DNA of 64,000 nt, from positions 9,456 to 73,455 of the forward strand of contig JBBTRQ010000019.1 in assembly GCA_038065075.1 (NCBI GenBank), in the 5' to 3' direction. The notes under the pieces are model-generated. The model was not told where the DNA came from, did not search any database, and was given only the letters and a program-made list of their open reading frames with translations. The position numbers and the translations under genes are program-made. Position 1 is the stretch's first letter. Each line of letters begins with the position of its first letter. This stretch comes from Patescibacteria group bacterium. Its GTDB lineage: Bacteria > Patescibacteriota > Patescibacteriia > UBA9934 > GWF2-40-263. Shown piece after piece: positions 27,945-39,437 of the stretch.

Positions 27945-29812
27945 GAATCTCGTTTCAGTACTTTTAGGTAGGCGTCTGTTGGAATGCTGACACGCCCTTT
28001 TCCAAGCGCGGCCATCTTTGCCTTTCCTTTTTTCTGTTTCTCGAGAAGCTTGCGCTTACGCGTCACGTCGCCGCCATAGAGGCCGGCTGTCACGTCTTTA
28101 CGCATCGCGGAAATCCGTTCCGAGGCGACGACTTTACCTCCCACGCTCGCTTGCAGTTTGATAACGAAATTCTGACGCGGGATCGTGTCCTTCAACACCG
28201 CGGTGATACGCCGCCCGGCTCGATCTGCTTCGTCGCGGTAGACCAGGGTGGAAAAAGCGTCCACCGGTTCTTCCGCAACCAAGATGTCCATCTTCACCAC
28301 GTCGGCCGGTCGGTAATCAATCACCTCGTAGTTGAGCGACGCGTAGCCAGCCGTGATGCTTTTGAGTTTATCGTAAAAATCCACGATGATCATGGCAAGC
28401 GGAATCTGATAGTGGAGAATGGCACGATCGCCAGCGAGATACTCGGTTGTCTCATACAACCCCCGTCGTTCCTGCATGAGCTGCATAATGGCGCCGATGT
28501 AGGAACTGGGACTGACAATATCGACCTTCACCCATGGTTCACGAATGACCTCGATGTGCGAGGGGTCGGGAAGCTCAAGCGGACTCTTGATCACGATAGT
28601 CTCACCGCGGCGCAGAACCACCTCATACGCCACAGACGGCACTGTCACGACCAGACTCATGTTGAACTCACGCTCAAGTCGCTCTTTGAGAATCTCCAGG
28701 TGCAACATGCCCAGCAGTCCACAACGGAATCCAAAACCCAGCGCCGGCGAGTGCTCGGACTCATAGACCAACGCGGAGTCGTTTAATTTGAGACGCTCAA
28801 TCGCTTCGCGCAAACGATGGAAATCATCACCCTCCTGCGGAAAGACACCGGCGAACACCATCGGTTTGACTTCCTTATAGCCAGGAAGCGCAGGCGGGAG
28901 ATGATCAGCAGGAACGGTAATGGTGTCACCAACTCGACAACCGCTGAGATCCTTGAGTCCGGTGACGATGTACCCAATTTGTCCAGCCTCTAACGTATCA
29001 GCAGATTTGAGAGCCCCCGGCGTGATCGCCCCGGTCTCAAGCACCTGAATGTCGGCGCCGGTGGCGATCATCTTTACCTTTTTGCCTTTGTGCAGGGCGC
29101 CGTCGACGACACGGATATATGCCATCACTCCTCGGTAGTCGTCGTAGAACGAATCAAAAATGAGGGCACGCGTAGGTGCGGCAGGGTCGCCAGACGGAGG
29201 TGGAAACCGTTGGACGATCGCATCAAGCAATTCCATCACCCCCTGTCCCGTCTTTCCACTCACCGCCAAAATCTCCTCGGGCTTACACCCGATAAGGGAC
29301 ACGATCTCAGCCGTGCGCGCTGGGATATCCGCCGCCGGCAGATCAATCTTGTTGAGGACGGGAATGATCTCGAGGTTCTCCTCAAGTGCGAGATACAAGT
29401 TTCCAATCGTCTGCGCCTGCACGCCCTGTGTGGCGTCGACGAGCAAGATCGCTCCCTCCACGGCCGCAAGAGACCGACTCACTTCGTAATTGAAGTCAAC
29501 GTGTCCCGGTGTGTCGATGAGGTTCAGGATGTATGTATCGGGGGGTACTTGCCGATCCAGATGGGATCCCTCGACTCGCTTCGCTCGCTCGGGATGACCC
29601 CCGCCAGAATACTTATAACCCATTCTGGCAGGGGTCAGCTTAATCGTGATCCCGCGCTCGCGTTCGATGTCCATGGAGTCGAGGATTTGCGCCTTCATGT
29701 TGCGTTTGTCTACCGCGCCGGTCAATTCCAAAAGCCGATCCGCGAGGGTCGACTTTCCATGATCGATGTGGGCGATGATACAGAAGTTTCGAATGTGCGC
29801 TTGATCGGCCAT
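27941..29812 (-). CDS. lepA: Elongation factor 4 (LepA)
   Basis: G-domain motifs AHIDHGKST and DTPGHVDF plus a LepA-specific C-terminus. Carries an in-frame repeat-family-D insertion (SGGGHPERAKRVEGSHLDRQVPP) between G1 and G3. Confidence 0.9.
   Translation of the reverse strand: MADQAHIRNFCIIAHIDHGKSTLADRLLELTGAVDKRNMKAQILDSMDIERERGITIKLTPARMGYKYSGGGHPERAKRVEGSHLDRQVPPDTYILNLIDTPGHVDFNYEVSRSLAAVEGAILLVDATQGVQAQTIGNLYLALEENLEIIPVLNKIDLPAADIPARTAEIVSLIGCKPEEILAVSGKTGQGVMELLDAIVQRFPPPSGDPAAPTRALIFDSFYDDYRGVMAYIRVVDGALHKGKKVKMIATGADIQVLETGAITPGALKSADTLEAGQIGYIVTGLKDLSGCRVGDTITVPADHLPPALPGYKEVKPMVFAGVFPQEGDDFHRLREAIERLKLNDSALVYESEHSPALGFGFRCGLLGMLHLEILKERLEREFNMSLVVTVPSVAYEVVLRRGETIVIKSPLELPDPSHIEVIREPWVKVDIVSPSSYIGAIMQLMQERRGLYETTEYLAGDRAILHYQIPLAMIIVDFYDKLKSITAGYASLNYEVIDYRPADVVKMDILVAEEPVDAFSTLVYRDEADRAGRRITAVLKDTIPRQNFVIKLQASVGGKVVASERISAMRKDVTAGLYGGDVTRKRKLLEKQKKGKAKMAALGKGRVSIPTDAYLKVLKRDS
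29564..29600. repeat. Repeat family D copy, inside lepA and in frame
   Basis: GGGATCCCTCGACTCGCTTCGCTCGCTCGGGATGACC. Other copies at 18733-18770, 44121-44180, 44251-44298, 60914-60962, with diverged copies in dus (40447-40490), rimK-like (41645-41682) and recJ. Confidence 0.65.
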
Positions 29813-29870: not shown

Positions 29871-30170
29871 CTAGGCGAACAGGAGGATCCCGCCGATCAT
29901 GCCGACCACGAAGCTGCAGGCGCTAACGCCGACCCAGACCGTGTGCCATGAGTGCAACCACGGCCATGGATCGGGCGCGGGCTGCAGGGCAGCGAGCGCC
30001 TGAACGGTTACGGTGTCATCGAGCTCGAGCTCGAGAACCTGTTCCTCGACGGGCGGCCGCCAAAACGGCGCCCCGACCGTGTCGTCCGGTCGCATGAGCG
30101 GCTGTGGCTTCTGCGGGACGATCACGTCGACAATCGTGGTCTCTTCTCCCCTTCGCGTCGATGCGTGCAT
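29871..30170 (-). CDS. Hypothetical small protein with a C-terminal TM segment
   Basis: GC-rich ORF at the left edge of the WD40/AAA island. Weak support. Confidence 0.2.
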   Translation of the reverse strand: MHASTRRGEETTIVDVIVPQKPQPLMRPDDTVGAPFWRPPVEEQVLELELDDTVTVQALAALQPAPDPWPWLHSWHTVWVGVSACSFVVGMIGGILLFA

Positions 30171-30320: not shown

Positions 30321-31352
30321 CTACCAGATCGCCGCGGCCAGTGCCTCGGGGGTGAGGATGGTGTTGCGTCCCAAGTCCGGACAACCGAAGTCCAAGAGAC
30401 AGGGGGCATAGCAGTCGGACGATCTTGCCGGACACTGTGTGCGGTTCTTGGAAACCAGCAGTCCCTTGCCATCATCCACGGGGATGACCGCGTCGACCAC
30501 TTCCCAGAAGTCCGTAAGCGCAAGCTCCAGCTGACCATCCGGCCAGCTCATGGCGTGCAGGCAGCCGCCTCCGCGGGTGCCATCCACGACCAAGGTGTCC
30601 CACTGCCCCACGAACAGGGTGTTTCCTGTGAAGATAAGTGCGCGAATCTCTCCGCGTGAGTGAGCGGTGAGCTCCGGCCTGTGGCGTGCCGCTCCAGTCC
30701 TCACGTCCACCAGGTGGATCTGTCCGCCTTGTGTCCCACACAGAAGCTCTCCCTTAGGCGTGAAGGTGAGAGCCCAGATGCTGGAGTCCAGCCGGAGGCT
30801 ATGGAGAGTATGGAATCTGCCATCTCCCTGCCTTGAGAGGATCTTCAGGTATCCATCCCACATCCCCACCGCCAGGATGGAACCGTCTGAAGAGAATGCC
30901 AAGCGCAAGATCTGACCCTCAAACCCCTCGAGGCACCGGAAGGTATCGCTCCCGGGATATCTCAAGAAGAGCACATTCTCGTCACCCCCTGTGGCAAGGA
31001 TGCCGTCCTGGGACAGGGCGAGGTGGTTGACAGACCAACTGGAGCTCACAATCGGTTCACCTCTTTGGCACAGATACTCCACATCCCACTCACGCAGGGT
31101 GTGGTCGTGGCTGCACGAGTAGAGGGTGCGGCCATCAGACGAGAGCGCGAGGCCGGCTACACTGTCGGTATGCCCTTCAAGGACACTACAAACTTCCCCG
31201 GTCTCCACACTCCACAGATGGATACGAGGATCCGCGTTGAATCCCCCGCCCGCCAGTGTCTTCTCGTCCTGGGACAGAGCCAGGCACCAGATCCAGCTAT
31301 TGTGCCCCCTGAACAATCGCCGAGTGGTCGGCTCGGAAACGATGCGGGTCAT
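30321..31352 (-). CDS. WD40 beta-propeller protein (7 repeats), paralog 1, with a conserved Cys-containing C-terminal tail
   Basis: Repeated GH...WD units (GHTDSVAGLALSSDGRTLYSCSHDHTLREWDV etc.). Start set at MTRIVSEPTTRRLF, preceded by AAAGGAGACCACC. C-terminal tail is YAPCLLDFGCPDLGRNTILTPEALAAAIW. Confidence 0.7.
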   Translation of the reverse strand: MTRIVSEPTTRRLFRGHNSWIWCLALSQDEKTLAGGGFNADPRIHLWSVETGEVCSVLEGHTDSVAGLALSSDGRTLYSCSHDHTLREWDVEYLCQRGEPIVSSSWSVNHLALSQDGILATGGDENVLFLRYPGSDTFRCLEGFEGQILRLAFSSDGSILAVGMWDGYLKILSRQGDGRFHTLHSLRLDSSIWALTFTPKGELLCGTQGGQIHLVDVRTGAARHRPELTAHSRGEIRALIFTGNTLFVGQWDTLVVDGTRGGGCLHAMSWPDGQLELALTDFWEVVDAVIPVDDGKGLLVSKNRTQCPARSSDCYAPCLLDFGCPDLGRNTILTPEALAAAIW

Positions 31353-31478
31353 GGTGGTCTCCTTTGAATGAACGTCTTGACCATGAAAGGTCGATGGCTC
31401 GCAGGGGCGAGCGTCAACCTCTCGTGGAAAAGGCCTAACGAGTTGCGTGTCGCTAGGCATGTGGTGGTAGTGCCCGTT
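31353..31478 (-). repeat. Conserved terminator/leader module, copy 1
   Basis: On the minus strand: terminator hairpin GCCTAGCGA..TCGTTAGGCC + TTTTCC, then hairpin GCTCGCCCCTGCGAGC, then AAAGGAGACCACC-ATG. Near-identical copies at 32511-32645, 35310-35457, 36490-36590. Confidence 0.7.
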
Positions 31479-32510
31479 CTACCACCTCGCCGCGGCTCGT
31501 GCCTCGGGAGTGAGGATGGTGTGGCGTCCCAGATCCGGACAACCGAAGTCCAAGAGACAGGGGGCGTAGCGGTCGGGCGACTCGGCCGGACTTTGCGTGC
31601 GGTTCTTGGAGACCAGCAGACTCTGGCCACCATTCACGGGGATGACCGCGTTAACCCATCCCCAGAAGTCCGTAAGTGCAAGCTCCAGCGCACCATCCGG
31701 CCAGCTCACGGCGTGCAGGCGACCGCTTCCGCGGGTGCCATCAGCGACCGAGGTGTCACACTGCCCCACGAGCAGGGAGTTTCGCGTGAACGCGAGCGCG
31801 TGGATCTCTCCGCGTGTGTGAACGGTGAGCTCCGGCCTGTGGCGTGACACTCCCGTCCTCACGTCCACCAGATGGATCTGTCCGCCCTCTGTCCCACACA
31901 GAAGCTCTCCCTCCGGCGTGAAGGTGAGAGCCCAGATGATCGAGTCCAGCTGGAGGCTGTGGAGAGTCTGGAATCTGCAATCTTCCTGCCTTGAGAGGAT
32001 CTTCAGGTGTCCATCCCACATCCCCACCGCCAGGATGGAACCGTCTGAAGAGAGCGCCAAGCGCAAGATCTGACCCTCAAACCTCTCGATACACCGGAAG
32101 GTATGGCTCCCGGGGTTTCTCAAGAAGAGCGTCTTCTCATCACCCCCTGTGGCAAGAGTGCCGTCCTGGGACAGGGCGAGGTGGTTGAAAGGCTGCTTCG
32201 AGCGCAAAGTCGGTTCACCTCTTTGACGCAGATGCTCCATGTCCCACTCGCGCAGAGTGTTGTCGTGGCTGCACGAGTAGAGGGTCTTGTCATCAGGCGA
32301 GAACGCGAGGCCGGTGACACTGTCTGTGTGCCCTTCAAGGACACCACGAACTTCTCCGGTCTCCACGCTCCATAGGTGGATCCGAGGATCTGCTCCTGAA
32401 CCCCCGCCCGCCAGTGTCTTCCCGTCTTGGGACAGAGCAAGGCGCCAGATCCAGCCGAGGTGTCCATTGAACAATCGCCGAGTGGTTGGCTCGGAGATGG
32501 TACGGGTCAT
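31479..32510 (-). CDS. WD40 beta-propeller protein, paralog 2
   Basis: Same architecture and C-terminal tail as paralog 1 (MTRTISEPTTRRLFNGH...). Confidence 0.7.
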   Translation of the reverse strand: MTRTISEPTTRRLFNGHLGWIWRLALSQDGKTLAGGGSGADPRIHLWSVETGEVRGVLEGHTDSVTGLAFSPDDKTLYSCSHDNTLREWDMEHLRQRGEPTLRSKQPFNHLALSQDGTLATGGDEKTLFLRNPGSHTFRCIERFEGQILRLALSSDGSILAVGMWDGHLKILSRQEDCRFQTLHSLQLDSIIWALTFTPEGELLCGTEGGQIHLVDVRTGVSRHRPELTVHTRGEIHALAFTRNSLLVGQCDTSVADGTRGSGRLHAVSWPDGALELALTDFWGWVNAVIPVNGGQSLLVSKNRTQSPAESPDRYAPCLLDFGCPDLGRHTILTPEARAAARW

Positions 32511-32645
32511 GATGGTCTCCTTTGAATGAACGTCTTGACCATGAAAGGTCGATGACTCGCCAGGGGCGAGCGTCAACCTCTCGTGGAAAAGGCCTAGCGA
32601 GAGCGTGTCGCTAGGCGTGCGGCTTGTGAGCCACGTGGTTGGTGA
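32511..32645 (-). repeat. Conserved terminator/leader module, copy 2
   Basis: See copy 1. Confidence 0.7.
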
Positions 32646-35309
32646 CTAATTCGTCACCGATGGCTTAACCGGCGGGATGACCTGCATACGGATGTCAGAC
32701 TCCTCTCCGTGCTGCTTGAGCACCTCCAGCGCCCACTCCACCTCGTCCCGCGCGTTGGCGGGCAGAAGCGCTCTGGAGCGCGCGTTGGCTACGGCCAACA
32801 GGGTCATGCGGGCGATTTGCGTTTGCTGTGCCTGCGGCATGTAATCGCCGATGGCCCAGAGCAGATCATCACGATTCACGCCAGGCTCCCCGTGCGTGTC
32901 GGCGTGCCGGACGATCACCTCGATGTCCGCGCCGGAGAGGCGCTTGGTCTTGTCGGCGAACTCCGTGAAGTCCGTGATGTCCGTGGTGAACCCGCCGCGC
33001 CGAATCATCACGCGGAACAAGGCTTCACGGGTCGTGGCATCGGGCATGAGCACCGGGATGACTTCGTCGCTTCGACCGGCACGCAGCATGGCCGCGTCGA
33101 TGAGATCCGGTCGGTTGCTGGCCGTCATGTAGAACACGCGGCCTCGGATGGTCGGATCGGCGAGGAAGGTCATCCACGCCTGACGCGTCCGGTTGGACAC
33201 ACCCGAGTCGCCGCTGAATCCATCGCGTCCGCCGTCGTTCTGATCGATCTCGTCCTGGAATACCACGCACGGCGCCATCAACCTTACGGCCTCCAGCTGG
33301 TCGTGCACGTTGCGCTCCGATGAGCCAACCCACATCTGTTGAGTGTGGCGAGGGATCAGCAGCAAGAGACCGGAGGCGTGCGCCAACGCCGTCGCCAGCG
33401 CACTCTTGCCGGTACCGGGCGGTCCCAGCAGTGCACACCCCATGGGCACTCGCGAGAGGTCGCCCGTGCGCATGCGCTCGCAGACGTCCAGGAGAAACGT
33501 CTTGACGCCGTCGAGTCCGGCGATGCCGTCAAACCCGTAGGGTGGGTCGATCACCTCAAACAGATGCCCGAAGCGCTCGTTGAGGATGACCAGCCTGTGT
33601 GCGACCACGTCCTTGTGGGACAGCGGCTGGTTGCCGGCCTGCGCGCGACGAAGCAGACGGCGCAGATCGCGGTAGCCCATGTTGCCGGTCAGACGAGCCA
33701 GCTCGACAACCCCCATGGTGGGCGTGTCGAACAACGATTCGTCGTCACGGGTTGCCGTGAGCCGTCGATGCTGCTCGCGCAAGTCGGTTAGTGTCTCGCT
33801 GGAGAGGTTCGGAAGACGAGCCTTGCTGTCTCGCAGTGTCTGCGCCAACTGCTGCGCGATCCGTGTGTGGTCCTCTTGCAGCTCCTGCAACCGACTCACA
33901 GCCGCTGTCGTCAGCCGATCGAGCTCGCTTTGCGCCTCTCGGATCGACGCCGGCTCGCTCGAGCACAGCGCCTCCAAGTTCCGTTGCAGCTCCTCCAGAC
34001 ACTCTGTTGCCTGCTTTCGAGCAAACGGCTTCACCGTTAGGCAAGCGACGTTGTCGGCATTGGCCACGCAGATGTCGGCGTCGTTTGCCTTGAAGCGCAT
34101 CACCAGCAATCCGCCCTCAAAGAAGAATTGGGCGGGGATGCTGGAGTTACGCGAGTCGGTGACCGGCTTGTTCGGGTTCGCCCCGCTGGCGAACTGCACT
34201 CCGCTACGTCTCGTCGCGCTCTTGAGCACAGTGAAGCGCTGTGCCCCACCACGCGAGTCCTGGACACTGACCATATCGCCGGGCGCCAAATTGGCCCAGC
34301 GAGCCTCGTCAAGAGACGCGTCATCGGTCAGGAGAGGATCGCTCCGCAGCTGTGCGCCAAGGGCATCGATCTGCGCTTGGAGATTCGCCAACTGCCCGGC
34401 ATTATCCGCGTTGAGGGACTGCCGCAGAGCCGTAAGCGAGGATCGGCACCGCTTCACGGCCGCCAGATGCCCCTTGTACTCACCGTCTTGCTTGAGGGAC
34501 TTGCGTAGGGCGCTGTGCCGTTCGTCTGCCGTCCGAGCCGCAACGATGTCGTCATTCGCTCGCGCTTGCAGTACTTGGATCTCCTCGGCGATCTGCATCT
34601 CCAGCTCTTGCTGGCGCTGCAGGCCACTGTCCGTCCTACACACCCGGCGCAAGTAAGCCTCACGCTCCGCCTGAAGGGGGGGATCCACCTTGATCAAGCA
34701 GATGGGCGAGCTGCTGTCGCGCAGCATCTGGGGCAACAAGCCGGAAGATCTGGCGCTCATGAGCACCAAATGGCCGACGATCCCAAAGGCATCGTCTTCC
34801 GCCATTCGCCGGATGAGCAACGGCGTACGCGACGACATGGCGCCGGCAGGGGAACTGTCGTCCAGACAGTAGGTGTCGACATTGGGCAGAATCACCGTGA
34901 AGCGAACCGAATCGCCGACGGCGTGCCGCAGCACGTTCATGATCTGCGACAAAGCCCCGGTGGGATCCGTCGTCTGCTCGACCCTCGACGCCACCTGCGC
35001 TCGCGCGCGGGCGATGGGATCGTCAGCTTCACCGGCAGACTGCCGGTTCTTCTTAAGCAGCTCCCCGAACGCCTCATGATCTTCGTCTCTGGGGAAGCTC
35101 AAGCCCAGAGCCGGATCAAACACGACGAAACGACGATCGGGCTCCTGCCTGACCAACGCGTCGAGTACCAGCCGGTGCCAAGGCAACAGCGCCATGGATG
35201 ACGCATCGGTCGTATTGGGGAAGCCGTCTGCGACGTTCCCGTCAAACAGGAAGCAGAAATGGCACCTGGCGCGCTCCTGCTCGAAGGTTCTCATCCAAGA
35301 TGGAGTCAT
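32646..35309 (-). CDS. Large (≈887 aa) protein: N-terminal unknown region + extensive coiled coils + C-terminal classical AAA ATPase domain
   Basis: Walker A GPPGTGKS, Walker B VVFQDEID, second region of homology RPDLIDAAMLRAGRSDEVIPV. Heptad-rich Q/L/A segments lie upstream. Start set at MTPSWMRTFEQ behind GGAGAAGAG. Confidence 0.7.
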   Translation of the reverse strand: MTPSWMRTFEQERARCHFCFLFDGNVADGFPNTTDASSMALLPWHRLVLDALVRQEPDRRFVVFDPALGLSFPRDEDHEAFGELLKKNRQSAGEADDPIARARAQVASRVEQTTDPTGALSQIMNVLRHAVGDSVRFTVILPNVDTYCLDDSSPAGAMSSRTPLLIRRMAEDDAFGIVGHLVLMSARSSGLLPQMLRDSSSPICLIKVDPPLQAEREAYLRRVCRTDSGLQRQQELEMQIAEEIQVLQARANDDIVAARTADERHSALRKSLKQDGEYKGHLAAVKRCRSSLTALRQSLNADNAGQLANLQAQIDALGAQLRSDPLLTDDASLDEARWANLAPGDMVSVQDSRGGAQRFTVLKSATRRSGVQFASGANPNKPVTDSRNSSIPAQFFFEGGLLVMRFKANDADICVANADNVACLTVKPFARKQATECLEELQRNLEALCSSEPASIREAQSELDRLTTAAVSRLQELQEDHTRIAQQLAQTLRDSKARLPNLSSETLTDLREQHRRLTATRDDESLFDTPTMGVVELARLTGNMGYRDLRRLLRRAQAGNQPLSHKDVVAHRLVILNERFGHLFEVIDPPYGFDGIAGLDGVKTFLLDVCERMRTGDLSRVPMGCALLGPPGTGKSALATALAHASGLLLLIPRHTQQMWVGSSERNVHDQLEAVRLMAPCVVFQDEIDQNDGGRDGFSGDSGVSNRTRQAWMTFLADPTIRGRVFYMTASNRPDLIDAAMLRAGRSDEVIPVLMPDATTREALFRVMIRRGGFTTDITDFTEFADKTKRLSGADIEVIVRHADTHGEPGVNRDDLLWAIGDYMPQAQQTQIARMTLLAVANARSRALLPANARDEVEWALEVLKQHGEESDIRMQVIPPVKPSVTN

Positions 35310-35457
35310 GACTCTTCTCCTCGTGTGGTGTGGGTTGGAAATTGAATGAACGTCTTGACCATGAGGGGTCGATGGCTCGCAGGGGCGAGCGTCAACCTCT
35401 CGTGGAAAAGGCCTAGCGAGCAGCGTGTCGCTAGGCATGCGGTGGGTAGTGCCCGTT
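35310..35457 (-). repeat. Conserved terminator/leader module, copy 3
   Basis: See copy 1. Confidence 0.65.
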
Positions 35458-36489
35458 CTACCACACCGCCGCGGCCAGTGCCTCAGGGGTGAGGATGGTG
35501 TTGCGCCCCAGACCCGGATAGCCAAAGTCCAAGAGACAGGGGGCGTAGCGGTCGGACGATCTTGCCGGACACTCCATGCGGTTCTTGGAAACCAGCAGTC
35601 CCTTGCCACCATTCACAGGGATGATCACGTCGACCCCTCCCCAGAAGTCCGTAGGGGCAAGCTCCAGCTGACCATCCGGCCAGCTCATGGCGTGCAGGCG
35701 GCCAAGTCCGCGGGTTCCATCCGTAATCGAAGTATCCTGCTGCCCCACAAGCAGAGCGTTTCGCGTGAACGCAAGCGCGCAGATCTCTCCACGTGTGCGA
35801 ACGGTGAGCTCTGGCCTGTGGCGTGACTCTCCCGTCCTCACGTCCACCAGGTGAATCTGCCCGCCTCCTGTCCCGCATAGGAGCTCTCCATCCGGCGTGA
35901 AGGTGAGCACCCAGATGCTTGAATCCAGCCGGAAGCGGTGGAGAGTCTGGAAGCTGCCATCTTCTTGCCTTGAGAGGACTCGCAGATGGCCGTAAGCCCT
36001 CCCCACCGCCAGGGTGGAACCGTCTGCAGAGAATGCCAGGCACCGGATCCAATTCTCGAACCCCTCGATGCGCTGGACGGTTTTGCTCCCGGGACGTCTC
36101 AAGAAGACAACGCCATCGCCACCTCCTGTGGCGAGTGTGCCGTCCTGGGACAGGGCGAGGTGACTGAGAGTACCCCTCGAACTCACAATCGGTTCACCTC
36201 TTTGGCGCAGATGCTTCACATCCCACTCACGCAGGGTGTGGTCGTAGCTGCACGAGTAGAGGGTGCGGCCATCATGCGAGAACGCGAGGCCGGTGACACT
36301 GTCTGTGTGCCCTTCAAGGACACCACGAACTTCCCCGGTCTCCACGCTCCATAGGTGGATACGAGGATCAAATCCTGAACCCCCGCCTGCCAGTGTCTTC
36401 CCGTCTGGGGACAGAGCAAGGCACCAGATCCAGCTGTTGTGTCCCCTGAACAATCGCCGAGTGGTTGGCTCGGAAACGGTACGGGTCAT
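35458..36489 (-). CDS. WD40 beta-propeller protein, paralog 3
   Basis: MTRTVSEPTTRRLFRGHNSWIWCLALSPDGKTLAGGG... with the same C-terminal tail. Confidence 0.7.
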   Translation of the reverse strand: MTRTVSEPTTRRLFRGHNSWIWCLALSPDGKTLAGGGSGFDPRIHLWSVETGEVRGVLEGHTDSVTGLAFSHDGRTLYSCSYDHTLREWDVKHLRQRGEPIVSSRGTLSHLALSQDGTLATGGGDGVVFLRRPGSKTVQRIEGFENWIRCLAFSADGSTLAVGRAYGHLRVLSRQEDGSFQTLHRFRLDSSIWVLTFTPDGELLCGTGGGQIHLVDVRTGESRHRPELTVRTRGEICALAFTRNALLVGQQDTSITDGTRGLGRLHAMSWPDGQLELAPTDFWGGVDVIIPVNGGKGLLVSKNRMECPARSSDRYAPCLLDFGYPGLGRNTILTPEALAAAVW

Positions 36490-36590
36490 GGTGGTCTCCT
36501 TTGAATGAACGTCTTGACCATGAAAGGTCAACGGCTCACCAGGGGCGAGCGTCGACCTCTCGTGGAAAAGGCCTAGCGAGTTGCGTGTCG
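36490..36590 (-). repeat. Conserved terminator/leader module, copy 4
   Basis: See copy 1. Confidence 0.65.
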
Positions 36591-37193
36591 CTAGGCATGC
36601 GAACCAAGACCCAACAGTCGTAGAACACTGGCGATTCGTCCGTGATCCGTCACGCCGTGCGAGACCACTTGACCGCCATCGATCTCCAGCGCGATGACGC
36701 TGTCCAAATCCTCTGAACGGTATCGCCCTGTCAACAGATGCACTCTCTGGTTACTACTTCCTCGCAGGGGAAGGTTGTCCACGGCCAAGAGTTGCACGAA
36801 CCGACCGTCGATAAGCACGTCCAGTTCTCGCAGAAGTTCGCGCGCCCCATCCGGCGCATGGGCACCGCGCAAGAACTTCCGTGTGTAGCCTGACCAGCAC
36901 AGCACGGACAGACCCTGCTCCTTGGCCGCGTGCGCGATCTGCGCAAGCGCCCGAGCTTGCTCAAAGGGCTCGCCTCCGGAGAAGCTCACGCCTTCGATCC
37001 CGAATCGTTCTTGCGCTTGCGCGATGCATGTGATCAACGCGTCGACAGCGACGAGGTTCCCTCCATCGCCCCAGAGCTCCGGCGTGGTGCAACCATGGCA
37101 GCCGATGGTGCAGCCCTTGACCCAAAGACACAGGCGCTGACCCGGACCCATGGCAGGCGTGCACTCGACCACGCGCCCGACGCGCAGGATCAT
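36591..37193 (-). CDS. Small radical-SAM / 4Fe-4S single-cluster protein of the NrdG / QueE activase type
   Basis: 'GPGQRLCLWVKGCTIGCHGCTTPELW' gives C-x3-C-x2-C in the NrdG/QueE-like context. About 200 aa. Confidence 0.55.
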   Translation of the reverse strand: MILRVGRVVECTPAMGPGQRLCLWVKGCTIGCHGCTTPELWGDGGNLVAVDALITCIAQAQERFGIEGVSFSGGEPFEQARALAQIAHAAKEQGLSVLCWSGYTRKFLRGAHAPDGARELLRELDVLIDGRFVQLLAVDNLPLRGSSNQRVHLLTGRYRSEDLDSVIALEIDGGQVVSHGVTDHGRIASVLRLLGLGSHA

Positions 37194-37402
37194 CCTCCAC
37201 CTCTGACCTTCCCACCGGATGGGACGGGAATGGGCGGAGCGCTTGCGTCGGGCACGTTCATCTCGTCAACACGTCCGCCCAACAACGCCAGGATGGCGCG
37301 CAGGCGTCGAGCCTCCTCCTGGCAGACGCCCGGAAGCGCTTCGACTTGGATGTCCACCGTGCCGTCGCCCTTCACGACGACGATGATCTCTCTGGCGCTC
37401 AT
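37190..37402 (-). CDS. Small protein (70 aa), translationally coupled to the radical-SAM gene
   Basis: 4-nt overlaps on both sides. Ends in a Pro/Gly-rich tail (PPIPVPSGGKVRGGG). Confidence 0.3.
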   Translation of the reverse strand: MSAREIIVVVKGDGTVDIQVEALPGVCQEEARRLRAILALLGGRVDEMNVPDASAPPIPVPSGGKVRGGG

Positions 37403-37965
37403 ACGTCCACCTTTCGGCCGACGATGACCAGGGCGCCGTCGGCTCCGCGCGTTTCCACGATGTCATCGACACAGAGAATCTGCATGGCCGCACGCATCTG
37501 CTGCTCATGAAAGTGACGCCGCAGACAGTCCTTCCACTGTGCAAGCTCGGCAGGGTGGCACTGCTGCGTTCCCGTGTTCCAGAACTGAAAGAAGGTGCCG
37601 TCCTCTCGGATCCCAACCCCCAACTGGAGGAATGTCCCGTTATTGAGCACGCCAAGAACTTCGCCTTGGTCCGGATCGCCGCTCTTGGAGCCGTAGGTGC
37701 TGGCGTTGTCGTAGCTCTTGGCGCATGTGCAACCCATCTCTTGCGCGGCTGCCGCAAGCGCTTGGCGCATGGCGTGGGCACGCACCTCCTGCCAATTGAT
37801 GGCGGCCAGATCCGCATCCTGCGCGCCGATCTGACCTAGTGCGCCCGTGACGGATCCGGCATCGGCGATCTCTCCGATGTGGAGCTTGTGATAGTGCAGA
37901 GACACCTGTCCTCCTGTGGGGAAGGTTATTCCATGGACAAAAGAGACGATTTTTCCCTTTGCCAA
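37399..37965 (-). CDS. Hypothetical protein (188 aa), first gene of the radical-SAM operon
   Basis: No recognisable motif. Overlapping stops and starts indicate an operon. Confidence 0.35.
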   Translation of the reverse strand: MAKGKIVSFVHGITFPTGGQVSLHYHKLHIGEIADAGSVTGALGQIGAQDADLAAINWQEVRAHAMRQALAAAAQEMGCTCAKSYDNASTYGSKSGDPDQGEVLGVLNNGTFLQLGVGIREDGTFFQFWNTGTQQCHPAELAQWKDCLRRHFHEQQMRAAMQILCVDDIVETRGADGALVIVGRKVDV

Positions 37966-38069
37966 GGAGAAACGTTTTTATATCAAAAACGCGAATGTGT
38001 CAATGAAAAATCCCGGACATCTAATCCGAGATATTCTGCTAGAAAGGTCTCTACAATATGATCACCTAC

Positions 38070-39437
38070 CTACCATTCATGACTACTCTGATATTCCGGC
38101 ACGATCACCTCCGTTTTGAGCTTGTGTCGAAGGTGTGTGGCGAAGACCTCCTTGGCCTCCGGATCGCCGTGCACGAGAAAAATCTTTTTTGGAATCTTGC
38201 CGTCTTCGGGCTTGAGCCAGCGCGTGAGCTTGTTCATGTCCGCGTGCGCCGAGAAGGCGCCGATCGCGCTTACTTGCGCGTGCACCTCCACGTCCTCGCC
38301 AAAAATCCGCACCTTCTTCGCCCCTTCGTACAACTTTCGCCCCGTCGTCCCCTGCGCCTGGTAGCCGATGATGAGCAGACGGTTGTTCTTGCCTGGGAGA
38401 TAGCGGATCAGGTGATGCATGATGCGTCCACCCGACATCATCCCGGAACCCGCGACGATAATTTTGGGTGGCACGGCATCGTTGATTGATTTGGACTCTT
38501 CCACAGAGAGAGTCTCGCGCAAATTCGGAAAGCTGAAGAAGTCCTTGTCGGGATCCTTCAGAATGGATTCATCGAATTTCAAAAACTGTTTGAAGTGTCG
38601 GTAGAGCGCCGTAGCCTTAATCGCCATCGGACTATCCAGATAAATCGGGAGCTTCGTGTGGAGGTCTTCTAAAAGAAGTTTGTTGATTTCGTACAGGAGC
38701 TCTTGCGTACGCTCGATCGAAAACGCTGGGATCATCAAGACCCCGCGAAGTTTGATGATATCTTGAATCGCCTCCTTCAACTTGGCTCCGCGCGTGTCCA
38801 TGCCCTCGTGTTCGCGGTGTCCGTAGGTCGATTCGCAGATGACGATGTCCGCATGGGAGATCGGTTCGGTGTCGGGAAGAATCGGCACGTCGTCGTTACC
38901 AATGTCCCCAGAGAAGACCACACGCTCTCCTTGTGCATCCACCGAGATGTAACTTGAGCCCAGCACATGACCCGCTTCATGAAAGACAACGGTCACCCCA
39001 GGCCACAGGTCGATATGCTCATGATAGGTCACGCTTTTGACTTGCGCGAACGCGCGCTCCAGATCTTCGAGTTCGTACAAGACCGAGCTCCCACATTTTT
39101 CTGCTTCTTCCTTCATGATGTGGTGTGCGTCCTCAAGCACCAATTTCGCCAAACCCACGCACGGCTCCACCATGTAGATCGGTCCCGTGAATCCTTCTTT
39201 CACGAGCTTAGGCAGACGCCCGGTGTGGTCGGCATGCGGATGGGAAACAAAAACGGCTTCAATCGCGGAAGCATCGAACTTAAACGCATCCTGGTTCTTG
39301 TTGCCGCACATGTGTTCCCCCTGGAACATGCCGCAATCAAACAGGATCGCGTGCGACTTTTTTTCCGCATCGAGAAACTCTAACCGATGGCATGAGCCCG
39401 TCACCTCCCTCGCGGCCCCATGAAATGAAATGTTCAT
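38070..39437 (-). CDS. Metallo-beta-lactamase fold / beta-CASP ribonuclease (RNase J/CPSF-like)
   Basis: HxHxDH motif (VSHPHADHTG) and beta-CASP region with conserved D/H. 455 aa. Confidence 0.65.
   Translation of the reverse strand: MNISFHGAAREVTGSCHRLEFLDAEKKSHAILFDCGMFQGEHMCGNKNQDAFKFDASAIEAVFVSHPHADHTGRLPKLVKEGFTGPIYMVEPCVGLAKLVLEDAHHIMKEEAEKCGSSVLYELEDLERAFAQVKSVTYHEHIDLWPGVTVVFHEAGHVLGSSYISVDAQGERVVFSGDIGNDDVPILPDTEPISHADIVICESTYGHREHEGMDTRGAKLKEAIQDIIKLRGVLMIPAFSIERTQELLYEINKLLLEDLHTKLPIYLDSPMAIKATALYRHFKQFLKFDESILKDPDKDFFSFPNLRETLSVEESKSINDAVPPKIIVAGSGMMSGGRIMHHLIRYLPGKNNRLLIIGYQAQGTTGRKLYEGAKKVRIFGEDVEVHAQVSAIGAFSAHADMNKLTRWLKPEDGKIPKKIFLVHGDPEAKEVFATHLRHKLKTEVIVPEYQSSHEW

What the first reader, a model, noticed from the sequence alone, without database searches (positions are those of the whole stretch)
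36591..37965. Translationally coupled operon: unknown 188-aa protein, 70-aa Pro/Gly-tailed peptide, NrdG/QueE-type radical-SAM protein
The three genes overlap by 4 nt each, which indicates coupled translation. The last gene is a ~200-aa single-cluster radical-SAM protein of the activase type (C-x3-C-x2-C, 'GPGQRLCLWVKGCTIGCHGC'). Such proteins normally activate a glycyl-radical partner or act like QueE, but no NrdD/PFL-like or QueC/QueD partner is present. A 70-aa protein with a flexible G/P-rich C-terminus sits immediately upstream. This could be a small modified peptide or substrate, or a carrier protein. The operon ends with the same terminator module that separates the WD40/AAA genes, which ties it physically to that island.
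Basis: partly seen in the sequence, partly recalled or inferred. Interest (0 to 1): 0.6.

Follow-up and report, generated by a model that had tools for sequence, protein, structure and literature searches.

The report
NrdG-like radical-SAM trio without NrdD
Three overlapping genes in a candidate-phyla bacterium pair a radical-SAM enzyme related to the activator of anaerobic ribonucleotide reductase with two small partner proteins instead of that reductase, and related forms of this uncharacterised module sit beside an AAA+ ATPase in many bacterial phyla.

Summary
Three minus-strand genes overlap by 4 nt each, and the last encodes a 200-aa CX3CX2C radical-SAM protein. One correction: the first gene starts at GTG 37905 (168 aa), not TTG 37965 (188 aa).

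The enzyme is a paralogue of NrdG but not NrdG. It scores 91 bits against a cutoff of 126. No nrdD lies in the 64 kb window. Canonical NrdD-linked NrdGs form a separate branch and lack its ~45-residue C-terminal extension.

All nine distinct Patescibacterial loci of its clade that I recovered keep the same X–Y–rSAM trio. Usually a CDC48-type AAA+ ATPase, WD40 genes or both lie beside it.

Y is a divergent DUF2997 (hhalign 90.8%, E 1e-6). In other phyla, sister rSAMs sit in an AAA–DUF1257-like–DUF2997–HhH–rSAM cassette (37 of 85 loci with good flanks). The rSAM's own C-terminal extension resembles Y (84.6%, E 7e-6). X is a confident α/β sandwich with no enzyme-like structural relative.

My best reading, which is inferred, is a stoichiometric X–Y–rSAM complex. 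The activase paralogue docks through its Y-like domain and modifies a protein partner by radical chemistry, working with the AAA+ ATPase.

The Gly-rich tail of Y coincides with the Shine-Dalgarno sequence of the overlapping gene, so it is weak evidence on its own. Function is untested.

The parts
37399..37905 (-). Gene X, 168 aa. Founding member here of a small family of about 170-aa proteins with no Pfam model. Predicted alpha/beta two-layer sandwich. It sits where the DUF1257-like gene sits in sister cassettes.
37190..37402 (-). Gene Y, 70 aa. Divergent DUF2997-like beta-beta-alpha module (residues ~5-40, invariant G14, C27, G42) followed by a disordered Pro/Gly-rich tail.
   Evidence: ORF. 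Alignments. hhalign against a DUF2997 profile gives 90.8%, E 1.2e-6, with controls scoring 14.3 or less. AF2 secondary structure. The tail overlaps the SD of the rSAM gene.
36591..37193 (-). Radical-SAM gene, 200 aa. NrdG-like glycyl-radical-activase paralogue.
   Evidence: Fer4_12 1.7e-31. TIGR02491 91.4 bits against a cutoff of 126.1. Conserved GPGxR, CX3CX2C, GGEPFxQA and LRGSSNQR motifs. Monophyletic with the other X-Y-linked rSAMs.
37089..37112 (-). Codons for C28-x3-C32-x2-C35, the radical-SAM [4Fe-4S] cluster motif.
   Evidence: Translation. The three Cys are invariant in 33 sequences.
36594..36722 (-). C-terminal extension of the rSAM (residues ~158-200), absent from canonical NrdG. 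It is a Y/DUF2997-like beta-hairpin plus helix.
   Evidence: NrdG models and phage NrdGs align only to residues ~1-157. hhalign of the extension against the Y profile gives 84.6%, E 6.8e-6, 33 columns. Y against the whole rSAM alignment hits only this region, E 2.2e-4. Controls give E >= 0.0046.
37977..38003 (-). Promoter-like TTGACA-N15-(TGa)TATAAA upstream of X, about 70 nt before the GTG start.
   Evidence: Read directly. The scan did not call it because of the 15-nt spacer. Inference only.
36502..36605 (-). Copy 1 of a ~100-nt intergenic module. A 9-bp hairpin plus UUUUCC overlaps the rSAM stop, then an 18-bp hairpin, then the RBS of WD40a.
   Evidence: family D6; dG -44.9 kcal/mol, z -8.4. 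No Rfam match.
35458..36489 (-). WD40a, 343-aa beta-propeller gene directly downstream of the trio.
   Evidence: Pfam WD40 2.6e-30. Public aa. WD40 genes also flank the trio in L001, L091 and L171.
35342..35445 (-). Copy 2 of the intergenic module, upstream of the AAA gene.
32646..35309 (-). AAA+ ATPase, 882-887 aa. One classic-clade (CDC48/FtsH/PAN-like) ATPase domain at the C-terminus and a long N-terminal region.
   Evidence: Pfam AAA 5.5e-22. CDC48 D2 is the best PDB match. 29% identity over 333 aa to the cassette AAA of Sutcliffiella, including the GDSGxSxR motif and the post-lid region. AAA follows the trio in L001, L003 and L091.
32522..32625 (-). Copy 3 of the intergenic module, upstream of WD40b.
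31479..32510 (-). WD40b paralogue, 343 aa.
31364..31467 (-). Copy 4 of the intergenic module, upstream of WD40c.
30321..31352 (-). WD40c paralogue, 343 aa.
29871..30170 (-). 99-aa ORF with a C-terminal hydrophobic segment, at the far end of the high-GC island. It has its own promoter-like site, and a terminator-like hairpin follows at 29862-29842. Membership of the system is uncertain.

Best explanation
The three genes encode a stoichiometric X-Y-rSAM complex. It is the highly diverged Patescibacterial form of a widespread but uncharacterised module: a DUF1257-like protein, a DUF2997 protein and an NrdG-like radical-SAM enzyme, working with a classic-clade AAA+ ATPase. Here three WD40 propeller genes are added.

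The radical-SAM protein is a paralogue of the anaerobic RNR activase. It has lost NrdD as partner and gained a C-terminal beta-beta-alpha domain that resembles Y.

Shown:
- The operon structure.
- The family assignments.
- The conserved synteny.
- The separate clade of these rSAMs.
- The resemblance between Y and the enzyme's C-terminal extension.

Inferred:
- The enzyme docks onto X-Y through like-with-like pairing of the beta-beta-alpha modules.
- It uses SAM cleavage to abstract a hydrogen atom from a protein partner rather than a nucleotide. The likeliest target is Y, at the invariant Cys27 or a Gly in its disordered tail. The tail of a cassette partner is an alternative.
- The modified or radical-bearing protein is then handled by the AAA+ ATPase.
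- The 8-kb high-GC island behaves as an accessory stress- or conflict-type system rather than core metabolism.
For: 4-nt overlaps with an SD inside each upstream gene.

All best rSAM family hits are glycyl-radical-enzyme activases, all below their cutoffs. These include NrdG 91 bits and PflA 52 bits; QueE scores only 17 bits.

The X-Y-rSAM order recurs in nine distinct Patescibacterial loci. Their rSAMs form one clade, apart from NrdD-linked NrdGs.

Y resembles DUF2997 at 90.8%, E 1.2e-6, with Cys aligned to Cys. The rSAM extension resembles Y at 84.6%, E 6.8e-6. In the sister clade the extension resembles DUF2997 at 81.9%, E 1.1e-5. Within-clade matches are stronger than cross-clade ones. Reversed and shuffled controls score 17.4 or less.

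37 of 85 well-flanked loci carry AAA + DUF1257-like + DUF2997 + HhH beside the rSAM.

Proteins encoded just upstream of these rSAMs carry clade-specific conserved extreme C-termini. NrdD's own glycyl loop, RITGY, also lies near its C-terminus.

X is a confident non-enzymatic sandwich. Y alone folds poorly (pLDDT 60.8), as expected for a subunit that needs a partner.

The island has GC 0.60-0.65 against ~0.53 and lies between lepA and a beta-CASP RNase gene.

Related rSAM clades sit with eCIS_core, NB-ARC/WD40, DO-GTPase and two-AAA-domain proteins. Kaur et al. [quoted passage not shown]
Against: No biochemical data exist for any member.

The Gly-rich end of Y is explained by the SD of the overlapping gene and is not conserved as GGG in all members.

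DUF2997, DUF1257 (Ycf35) and an AAA (Ycf46) occur in cyanobacteria and plastids without a radical-SAM gene (PMC4284462, PMC7496141, PMC5940233). X-Y-type proteins therefore have a role that does not require the enzyme.

X could not be linked to the DUF1257-like proteins of the sister cassettes statistically (hhalign 4%).

Two distinct loci (L169, L009) have the trio with no AAA or WD40 nearby.

PADLOC has no model for X or Y, and the rSAM gives only marginal pVip matches there (E 0.0016). No mobile-element gene flanks the island.

The domain similarities rest on 19-39 aligned columns.
Confidence: 0.45

Rival explanations
1. RiPP-like system. Y is a precursor peptide whose C-terminal tail is modified by the radical-SAM enzyme and released as a small effector. 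X acts as a chaperone or recognition factor.
For: A small ORF sits immediately upstream of, and is translationally coupled to, a radical-SAM gene. Y has a disordered 25-30 residue tail. [quoted passage not shown] One soil clade pairs the rSAM with TldD/PmbA-like peptidase-domain proteins.
Against: No SPASM/twitch domain and no canonical RRE. No protease, cyclase or exporter lies in the island. Y's conserved part is a folded domain homologous to DUF2997, which exists widely without any rSAM (PMC4284462). The enzyme belongs to the activase branch, which acts on folded proteins.
Confidence: 0.15
2. X-Y is not the substrate. It is an accessory redox, Fe-S or docking adaptor that supplies electrons or a cluster, or tethers the enzyme to the AAA+ ATPase. 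The true substrate would be another protein, such as the WD40 or AAA tails here or the HhH protein in sister cassettes.
For: In cyanobacteria the DUF2997-DUF1257(ycf35) pair is clustered with ferredoxin fed7. Here the equivalent pair is clustered with another Fe-S enzyme. Y and DUF2997 share one invariant Cys. In sister cassettes the gene coupled to the rSAM is the HhH protein. Its GR.[IV]D[FY] C-terminus is shared with the AAA. ycf35, ycf46 and the Fe-S gene ycf34 are lost together in freshwater red algal plastids.
Against: A single Cys per 70-aa protein cannot bind a cluster on its own. In Patescibacteria Y, not another protein, is always the gene coupled to the rSAM. Nothing here tests electron transfer.
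Confidence: 0.15
3. Ordinary scattered housekeeping NrdG that activates a class III ribonucleotide reductase encoded elsewhere in the genome.
For: NrdG is the best-scoring named family (91.4 bits, E 5e-26). PHROG 'anaerobic ribonucleotide reductase small subunit' scores 3.3e-26. Some public records name relatives that way.
Against: The score is below the curated cutoff of 126.1. No nrdD lies in the 64 kb. The trio is conserved in nine distinct loci, none with nrdD. True NrdD-NrdG pairs (L082, L144, L168) branch apart, are 166-176 aa and lack the C-terminal extension.
Confidence: 0.04
4. Nucleotide-modifying effector of QueE or viperin type, making a modified base or a chain-terminating nucleotide in a defence context.
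For: Weak matches to QueE (17.5 bits) and prokaryotic viperin models (E 0.0016-0.02). PHROG 'QueE-like' scores 2.4e-6. The wider context has a conflict-system flavour.
Against: All these scores are far below their cutoffs and far below the activase scores. No queC/queD, kinase or nucleotide-handling gene lies in any of the loci. The conserved LRGSSNQR motif is retained in the true NrdD-linked activases P0101 and P0111 only as GSSNQR (PWVGSSNQR).
Confidence: 0.05
5. Ubiquitin-like tagging. Y's C-terminal Gly-Gly(-Gly) is conjugated to targets that the AAA+ ATPase then unfolds, by analogy with Pup/Mpa or SAMP/PAN.
For: Four of the nine distinct Y sequences end in GGG, GGGS or GGGT. A PAN/CDC48-like AAA lies beside the trio. 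Locus L003 carries a separate SAMP2-like protein ending in GG downstream of the AAA.
Against: Y is predicted as beta-beta-alpha, not a beta-grasp. No E1, E2, ligase or deamidase lies in the island. The Gly codons coincide with the SD of the next gene, and other Y sequences end in KG, HGE, QGM or GSQS.
Confidence: 0.04

Closest known systems
NrdG, anaerobic (class III) ribonucleotide reductase activating protein (TIGR02491; Pfam Fer4_12)
   Same: Same fold family and size class. N-terminal GPGxR plus CX3CX2C, GGEPFxQA and DxLxDG motifs, and the GSSNQ core of RGSSNQR. Alignment covers 141 of 154 model positions. By homology the chemistry is SAM-derived H-atom abstraction from a protein.
   Different: Scores below the curated cutoff. 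No NrdD partner in the window or in any locus of its clade. It branches apart from the NrdD-linked enzymes. It carries an extra ~45-residue C-terminal DUF2997/Y-like domain.
AAA - DUF1257-like - DUF2997 - HhH(ComEA-like) - NrdG-like rSAM cassette of Melainabacteria, Bacillaceae, Paenibacillus, Planctomycetota and others. I found no description of it in the literature searched.
   Same: The same four kinds of component sit next to each other: a ~70-aa beta-beta-alpha protein with one invariant Cys, a ~150-190-aa protein just upstream of it, an NrdG-like rSAM with a C-terminal extension resembling its own small partner, and a classic-clade AAA+ ATPase.
   Different: X is not detectably related to the DUF1257-like proteins of those cassettes. 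Y misses the Pfam DUF2997 model. The HhH membrane protein and the shared GR.[IV]D[FY] C-terminal tails are absent. WD40 genes are present instead. The AAA is 880-1070 aa rather than ~540. The gene order is X-Y-rSAM-AAA.
Cyanobacterial and plastid Ycf46 (AAA ATPase), Ycf35 (DUF1257) and DUF2997 genes, for example the Synechocystis slr0373-slr0374-slr0376 stress operon and the DUF2997-ycf35-fed7 cluster
   Same: A small DUF2997 protein and a DUF1257 protein are encoded side by side and linked to an AAA ATPase or an Fe-S protein. Function is unknown. They are stress-induced and are lost together in some plastids.
   Different: No radical-SAM gene is reported there. I did not test whether the cassette AAA is orthologous to Ycf46. 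That link rests on my recollection plus the literature cited.
FtsH ternary (vWA-MoxR) conflict systems of Kaur, Burroughs, Iyer and Aravind 2020 (PMC7159879)
   Same: [quoted passage not shown] The Actinomadura locus L008 (rSAM - 468 aa - two-AAA-domain protein) looks like this type, and its rSAM is a relative.
   Different: No MoxR and no two-domain FtsH-type ATPase lie in the island, and no vWA protein does either. A vWA protein occurs only about 5 kb away in L169. The Patescibacterial rSAMs form their own clade.
Glycyl-radical enzyme plus activase pairs (PflB/PflA, GrcA/YfiD spare part)
   Same: An activase-family rSAM is encoded next to a protein on which it presumably acts. GrcA shows that a small protein can carry the radical site.
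   Different: Y is 70 aa with no glycyl-radical domain and no RVxG[YFW] motif. No ten-stranded barrel protein is present.

Membership tests
NrdG (TIGR02491 equivalog) | Score at or above the curated cutoff of the equivalog model | tested here: not met
   91.4 bits against a cutoff of 126.1. PRK11121 scores 62 against 199.
NrdG (TIGR02491 equivalog) | CX3CX2C radical-SAM cluster motif with the preceding GxGxR | tested here: met
   GPGQRLCLWVKGCTIGCHGC. The three Cys are invariant in 33 sequences.
NrdG (TIGR02491 equivalog) | Encoded with, or co-occurring with, NrdD (Pfam NRDD) | tested here: not met
   No NrdD in the 64 kb nor in any X-Y locus. True NrdD neighbours occur only on a distant branch. 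The whole genome was not available.
NrdG (TIGR02491 equivalog) | About 150-180 aa with no domain after the RGSxNQ motif | tested here: not met
   200 aa. Residues ~158-200 form an added Y/DUF2997-like module.
QueE (7-carboxy-7-deazaguanine synthase) | Match to QueE models at the curated cutoff | tested here: not met
   TIGR04349 scores 17.5 bits against a cutoff of 300.
QueE (7-carboxy-7-deazaguanine synthase) | Neighbourhood with queC/queD/queF | tested here: not met
   None appears among the called genes of the trio-flanking region in the source record or of the homologous loci. The remainder of the 64 kb was not family-scanned.
DUF2997 (PF11211), for Y | Match to the Pfam model | tested here: not met
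   No hit at E <= 0.1. Precomputed Pfam is '-' for all Y relatives.
DUF2997 (PF11211), for Y | Profile-profile similarity to bona fide DUF2997 proteins, with the conserved Gly and Cys aligned | tested here: met
   hhalign 90.8%, E 1.2e-6, 39 columns, Cys on Cys. Reciprocal HMM cross-hits reach E 1.6e-5. Shuffled and reversed controls score 14.3 or less. The DUF2997 proteins used score 1e-8 to 3e-13 on PF11211.
DUF2997 (PF11211), for Y | About 70 aa, encoded directly after a 150-190-aa partner and near an AAA ATPase | tested here: met
DUF1257 / Ycf35 (PF06868), for X | Sequence or profile similarity to DUF1257 | tested here: not met
   No Pfam hit for any of 37 family members. hhalign against the cassette DUF1257-like profile gives 4%, E 0.01, although the aligned C-terminal helix plus hairpin is in register.
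DUF1257 / Ycf35 (PF06868), for X | Shared fold with Ycf35 models | not testable with these tools
FtsH ternary conflict system (Kaur et al. 2020) | MoxR AAA+ and vWA proteins | tested here: not met
   None among the island genes.
FtsH ternary conflict system (Kaur et al. 2020) | Protein with two FtsH-type AAA+ domains, the first inactive | tested here: not met
   The window AAA has one AAA domain, residues ~728-853 of the 988-aa ORF.
FtsH ternary conflict system (Kaur et al. 2020) | Radical-SAM effector with a standalone small protein | tested here: met
   The rSAM of an Actinomadura locus of that general type is a relative.
RiPP radical-SAM maturase system | SPASM/twitch auxiliary-cluster domain or an RRE (PqqD-like) domain | tested here: not met
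   Only Fer4_12 and Radical_SAM were detected. SPASM-family models score E >= 0.007.
RiPP radical-SAM maturase system | Leader peptidase and/or exporter in the cluster | tested here: not met
   The island holds only X, Y, rSAM, three WD40 genes, AAA and a 99-aa ORF.
Ubiquitin-like modifier (beta-grasp, C-terminal GG), for Y | Beta-grasp fold | tested here: not met
   The AF2 model has two strands, one helix and a disordered tail. Confidence is low, pLDDT 60.8.
Ubiquitin-like modifier (beta-grasp, C-terminal GG), for Y | E1-like adenylating enzyme in the cluster, and a conserved terminal GG | tested here: not met
   No E1 in the island. The termini vary (GGG, GGGS, GGGT, KG, HGE, QGM, GSQS) and coincide with the SD.
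Known anti-phage defence systems (PADLOC v2) | Match of the components to a PADLOC system model | tested here: not met
   X and Y give none. The rSAM gives only pVip at E 0.0016. The AAA gives only generic IetA-type AAA similarity.

The most novel reading that the evidence does not exclude
An NrdG paralogue installs a C-alpha radical, or a radical-derived modification, on a 70-aa DUF2997-type protein. Possible modifications include O2-triggered backbone cleavage, C-terminal processing, or chemistry at the invariant Cys. The enzyme recognises the protein through a matching beta-beta-alpha domain. The modified protein then acts as a switch or tag for a CDC48-like AAA+ ATPase. This would be a minimal protein-radical signalling or tagging system. 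It would also give the first biochemical handle on the long-orphan Ycf35/DUF2997/Ycf46 gene set.
Probability: 0.15. Interest if true: 0.85.

Novelty: new variant of a known kind. Interest (0 to 1): 0.6.

Why it matters
Glycyl-radical activases are thought of as dedicated partners of large glycyl-radical enzymes. This work shows a whole radiation of NrdG paralogues that have left NrdD. They are wired to small DUF2997-type proteins and AAA+ ATPases in many phyla, and each has acquired a domain resembling its own small partner.

If the enzyme modifies that partner, two things follow. It would define a new class of radical-SAM protein substrate. It would also give a testable function for DUF2997, DUF1257/Ycf35 and Ycf46, which are conserved in cyanobacteria and plastids and have been unexplained for decades.

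Even if the mechanism is wrong, there is a practical lesson. Genes annotated 'anaerobic ribonucleoside-triphosphate reductase activating protein' in CPR and many other genomes are often not NrdG.

Tried and rejected
Searches that found nothing:
- Pfam, NCBIfam, PADLOC and PHROGs for X and Y.
- Rfam on the island found nothing meaningful.
- The sigma-70 and terminator scan did not call the module hairpins or the X promoter.
- Phage collection: only canonical T4-type NrdG, with no cassette.

Tools that failed or were unavailable:
- The search for related loci with the X alignment failed because no stretch was conserved enough.
- The afdb50 fold library was unavailable, so X could not be compared with Ycf35 models.
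- The word-indexed search found only 2 X relatives and 9 Y relatives.

Comparisons that were not significant:
- X against the DUF1257-like profile of sister cassettes.
- C-termini of the cyanobacterial-type upstream proteins against Y or DUF2997.

Readings considered and rejected:
- Y as a Ubl: the fold is not a beta-grasp and the terminal Gly codons are the SD.
- The rSAM as QueE: the scores are negligible.
- The rSAM as housekeeping NrdG: synteny, clade and extension all argue against it.
- A glycyl-radical motif search in the window found none.
Full report
**1. What is in the sequence**

The minus strand between 37965 and 36591 carries three ORFs whose ends overlap by 4 nt: 37399-37402 and 37190-37193. 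The window matches a public Patescibacteria MAG contig, GCA_964359885.1 CAYHTY010000002.1. That record calls them as 168, 70 and 200 aa.

35 of 37 family members begin MS[RL]H[YW]. This aligns with the GTG at 37905, which is preceded by AGGAGG. I call the genes X (37905-37399), Y (37402-37190) and rSAM (37193-36591).

Each downstream start codon is preceded by a Shine-Dalgarno sequence inside the upstream gene. This holds in all eight homologous operons examined, so translational coupling is a fair reading.

An AT-rich 160-nt spacer upstream of X holds TTGACA-N15-TGaTATAAA (read). This is an inference; the scan did not call it.

**2. The island**

The trio opens an ~8-kb stretch of GC 0.60-0.65 in a ~0.53 background. 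The stretch lies between a beta-CASP RNase gene (38070-39437) and lepA (27941-29812).

All genes are on the same strand, in this order:
- X, Y, rSAM
- WD40a
- an 882-887-aa AAA+ ATPase
- WD40b
- WD40c
- a 99-aa ORF with a C-terminal hydrophobic segment

A ~100-nt module precedes WD40a, the AAA gene, WD40b and WD40c, and the first copy overlaps the rSAM stop codon. It has a 9-bp hairpin plus UUUUCC, then an 18-bp hairpin, then an RBS. It folds at -44.9 kcal/mol, z = -8.4, and matches no Rfam family.

No tRNA, integrase or transposase flanks the island.

**3. The radical-SAM protein**

It matches Fer4_12 at 1.7e-31. Every named best hit is a glycyl-radical-enzyme activase, and all are below their curated cutoffs:
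- NrdG TIGR02491: 91.4 bits against 126.1
- PflA: 52 against 232
- YjjW: 33 against 250

QueE scores 17.5 against 300 and viperin gives E 0.02.

The family conserves GPGxR, CX3CX2C, GGEPFxQA, DxLxDG and LRGSSNQR.

No NrdD-like sequence and no RVxG[YFW]-type motif occurs in any ORF of 300 aa or more in the window.

**4. Neighbourhoods of relatives**

*Closest relatives.* The closest relatives (45-55% identity) are from Uhrbacteria, Kaiserbacteria and other Patescibacteria. Including the window, I recovered nine distinct loci of this clade: the window, L001, L003, L009, L010/L091, L089/L169, L090/L171, L092 and the 2,963-nt contig carrying P0002 and P0164. In all nine the rSAM is preceded by an X homologue and a ~70-aa Y homologue.
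- An AAA ATPase, WD40 genes or both follow in five of the seven loci whose flanks are informative.
- In L001 the AAA is split into 306 + 577 aa.
- Two distinct loci (L169, L009) lack both nearby.

*More distant relatives.* At 36-48% identity, relatives are spread over Melainabacteria, Bacillaceae, Paenibacillus, Planctomycetota, Myxococcota, Actinomycetota and one methanogen MAG. Of 85 loci with adequate flanks:
- 37 carry the full set AAA (~540 aa) + DUF1257-like (150-190 or ~420 aa) + DUF2997 (~70 aa) + a ComEA-like HhH membrane protein next to the rSAM.
- 6 are of the X-Y type.
- 30 have other contexts.

Those other contexts include eCIS_core proteins (Polyangium), NB-ARC/WD40 plus DO-GTPases (Dulcicalothrix), a two-AAA-domain protein (Actinomadura) and TldD/PmbA-domain proteins (soil clade).

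*Canonical pairs.* Bona fide NrdD-NrdG pairs do occur among the most distant hits. Three (L082, L144, L168) were confirmed with Pfam NRDD at 1e-186 or better. Their activases are 166-176 aa and branch apart in an NJ tree. In that tree the X-Y-linked enzymes form one clade and the DUF2997-linked enzymes another. Phage NrdGs align only to residues 1-157.

The gene is therefore not a scattered housekeeping nrdG. No NCBIfam model exists for any of these non-canonical clades; all score 91-112 bits on TIGR02491.

**5. Y**

Y has no direct Pfam hit. A profile of eight Y sequences aligns with a profile of 47 bona fide DUF2997 proteins at 90.8% probability, E 1.2e-6, over 39 columns. The invariant Cys of each is superposed. 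The DUF2997 proteins used score 1e-8 to 3e-13 on PF11211.

Reciprocal HMM cross-hits reach E 1.6e-5. Reversed or column-shuffled targets never exceed score 14.3, against 36.0 for the real comparison.

AF2 with a shallow alignment gives a beta-hairpin (residues 5-10 and 16-21), a helix (27-40) and a disordered tail from about residue 45. Mean pLDDT is 60.8. That fits a subunit that folds on a partner.

The Pro/Gly tail needs care. The terminal GGN codons spell the SD (GGAGG or GGGGG) of the overlapping rSAM gene in every operon. Other Y proteins end in KG, HGE, QGM or GSQS. A looser P-x-I-P ... [KR]-[VL]-x-G pattern remains.

**6. X**

The exhaustive HMMER search found only 37 cluster representatives in 1.84 billion proteins. 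Nearly all are ~170 aa, and none has a Pfam hit.

AF2 gives a confident model (pLDDT 89.4, pTM 0.85). It is an alpha/beta two-layer sandwich with two long helices that ends in a beta-hairpin. Structural comparison gave:
- Foldseek against PDB: nothing significant (E >= 0.12).
- Foldseek against BFVD: best hit E 2.9e-3, TM 0.41-0.46, to an unnamed 147-aa viral protein.

There is no Rossmann or P-loop fold and no conserved catalytic-type residue; the invariant or near-invariant positions are W38, A54, G85 and G96. I read X as a binding or scaffold subunit.

Its position and size match the DUF1257-like gene of the sister cassettes. The profile comparison is not significant (4%, E 0.01), although the aligned C-terminal helix plus hairpin is in register. 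Homology to Ycf35 is therefore open.

**7.

Residues ~158-200 of the rSAM are absent from NrdG, and they resemble Y.
- The extension profile of the X-Y clade aligns with the Y profile at 84.6%, E 6.8e-6, over 33 columns (hairpin plus helix).
- In the sister clade the extension aligns with DUF2997 at 81.9%, E 1.1e-5.
- Cross-clade pairs are weaker, at 31% and 19%.
- Y run against the whole rSAM alignment hits only this region, E 2.2e-4.
- Controls give E >= 0.0046.

The matches are short, so I treat this as good but not conclusive evidence. It suggests that each enzyme carries a copy-like module of its own small partner.

**8. C-terminal tails**

Proteins encoded immediately upstream of these rSAMs have clade-specific, strongly conserved extreme C-termini:
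- DUF2997 clade...G/E-R-x-[IVL]-D-[FYLW] on the HhH protein. The cassette AAA carries the same tail.
- Cyanobacterial clade: RR-x-E-x-QGY.
- Soil clade: ...PKPGK.
- NrdD itself has its RITGY glycyl loop about 25 residues from the end.

This parallel is suggestive of tail recognition, or of chemistry on the tail, by the enzyme. It is an inference only, and part of it may again reflect SD constraints.

**9. Mechanism I commit to** (confidence ~0.45)

X, Y and the rSAM are made in fixed ratio and form a complex. The NrdG paralogue docks through its Y-like C-terminal module. It uses the 5'-deoxyadenosyl radical to abstract a hydrogen atom from a protein partner. The likeliest target is Y, at Cys27 or a tail Gly; a tail of a cassette partner is the alternative. 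The product is coupled to the CDC48-like AAA+ ATPase, with the WD40 propellers as target- or signal-binding parts.

Shown: gene structure, families, synteny, clade separation and domain similarities.

Inferred: complex formation, the identity of the substrate, the chemistry and the biological role.

An accessory stress- or conflict-type role is suggested by:
- the compositional island;
- the sporadic distribution;
- the triplicated WD40 paralogues with dN/dS 0.45-0.49;
- the company kept by sister clades;
- Kaur et al. [quoted passage not shown]

Against a pure defence reading:
- DUF2997, DUF1257 (Ycf35) and the AAA Ycf46 are conserved cyanobacterial and plastid genes. They are stress-induced, clustered with ferredoxin fed7, and lost together in some red algal plastids.
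- PADLOC has no model for X or Y, and the rSAM gives only marginal pVip matches there.

The equivalence of the cassette AAA with Ycf46 is my recollection plus literature. It was not tested here.

**10. Rivals**

- RiPP-like precursor, 0.15.
- X-Y as a redox or docking adaptor with another substrate, 0.15.
- QueE- or viperin-type nucleotide chemistry, 0.05.
- Housekeeping NrdG, 0.04.
- Ubl-like tagging, 0.04.

Evidence for and against each is given in the Rival explanations section.

**11. Novelty and verdict**

The components belong to known superfamilies, and one paper has noted a radical-SAM-plus-peptide pair in AAA+ conflict systems. Three things appear in no paper I could find:
- the pan-phylum rSAM-DUF2997-DUF1257-like-AAA cassette;
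- its Patescibacterial X-Y variant, which has no Pfam families;
- the partner-like C-terminal domain of the enzyme.

I rate it a new variant of a known kind, interest 0.6.

Noticed in passing
window 36502-36605, 35342-35445, 32522-32625, 31364-31467 (minus strand): Four copies of a ~100-nt intergenic module with two strong hairpins (dG -44.9 kcal/mol, z -8.4) and no Rfam match. One precedes each of WD40a, AAA, WD40b and WD40c. It could act as a terminator, attenuator or mRNA-stability element, or it could simply be a duplicated leader.
   Followed up: partly
window 30321-31352, 31479-32510, 35458-36489 (minus strand): Three WD40 paralogues at ~85% nucleotide identity with pairwise dN/dS of 0.45-0.49, which is high for bacterial genes. 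All share a conserved C-terminal block, CLLDFG.P.LGR.TILTPEA. Similar [IL][LF]DFG.P.[LF]G blocks end the WD40 genes beside the trio in L001 and L091. This loosely recalls the ...[IV]D[FY] termini of the sister cassettes.
   Followed up: partly
L011, L020, L058 and about 50 other loci (e.g. L020:6957-10621): In the AAA-DUF1257-like-DUF2997-HhH-rSAM cassettes, both the AAA ATPase and the HhH (ComEA-like) membrane protein end in the same extreme C-terminal motif, (G/E)R.[IVL]D[FYLW]. The shared tail suggests a common docking or modification site.
   Followed up: partly
L007:6928-7998, L101, L110, L112, L128, L130: In the cyanobacterial clade, the 350-400-aa protein coupled to the rSAM ends in a conserved RR.E.QGY-COOH. 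Its terminal G-Y recalls the xGY of glycyl-radical loops. These loci also carry DO-GTPase genes and, in L007, an NB-ARC/WD40 gene.
   Followed up: partly
L122:7948-9954, L137:7143-9965 and about 30 short soil-metagenome loci: A large soil clade of the same rSAM family is coupled to 650-1090-aa proteins. Those proteins have a PmbA/TldD C-terminal domain and a conserved ...TPDLL.KE.D...RP.P..PKPGK C-terminus.
   Followed up: no
L003:11474-15938: Downstream of the X-Y-rSAM-AAA genes of another Patescibacterial MAG lie five further genes. One is a 94-aa SAMP2-like protein ending in ...QGG (E 4e-5, below the cutoff). Another is a 161-aa protein that looks to me like an E1 (ThiF) fragment, with no Pfam hit. 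This may be a link to Ubl conjugation, as in the complex FtsH ternary systems.
   Followed up: partly
window 29871-30170 (minus strand): A 99-aa ORF (GC 0.65) with a C-terminal hydrophobic segment. It has its own promoter-like site (30230-30202) and a good terminator-like hairpin (29862-29842) at the lepA-side edge of the island.
   Followed up: no
L169:11295-13598: A 767-aa vWA (CobT_C/VWA) protein lies about 5 kb downstream of an X-Y-rSAM trio that has no adjacent AAA or WD40 gene.
   Followed up: no
window about 46006-48564 (minus strand): The public record's gene calls show a TraG/VirD4-type T4SS coupling protein (851 aa; T4SS-DNA_transf, TrwB_AAD_bind) about 8 kb from the island. It was seen only in the precomputed Pfam list.
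   Followed up: no
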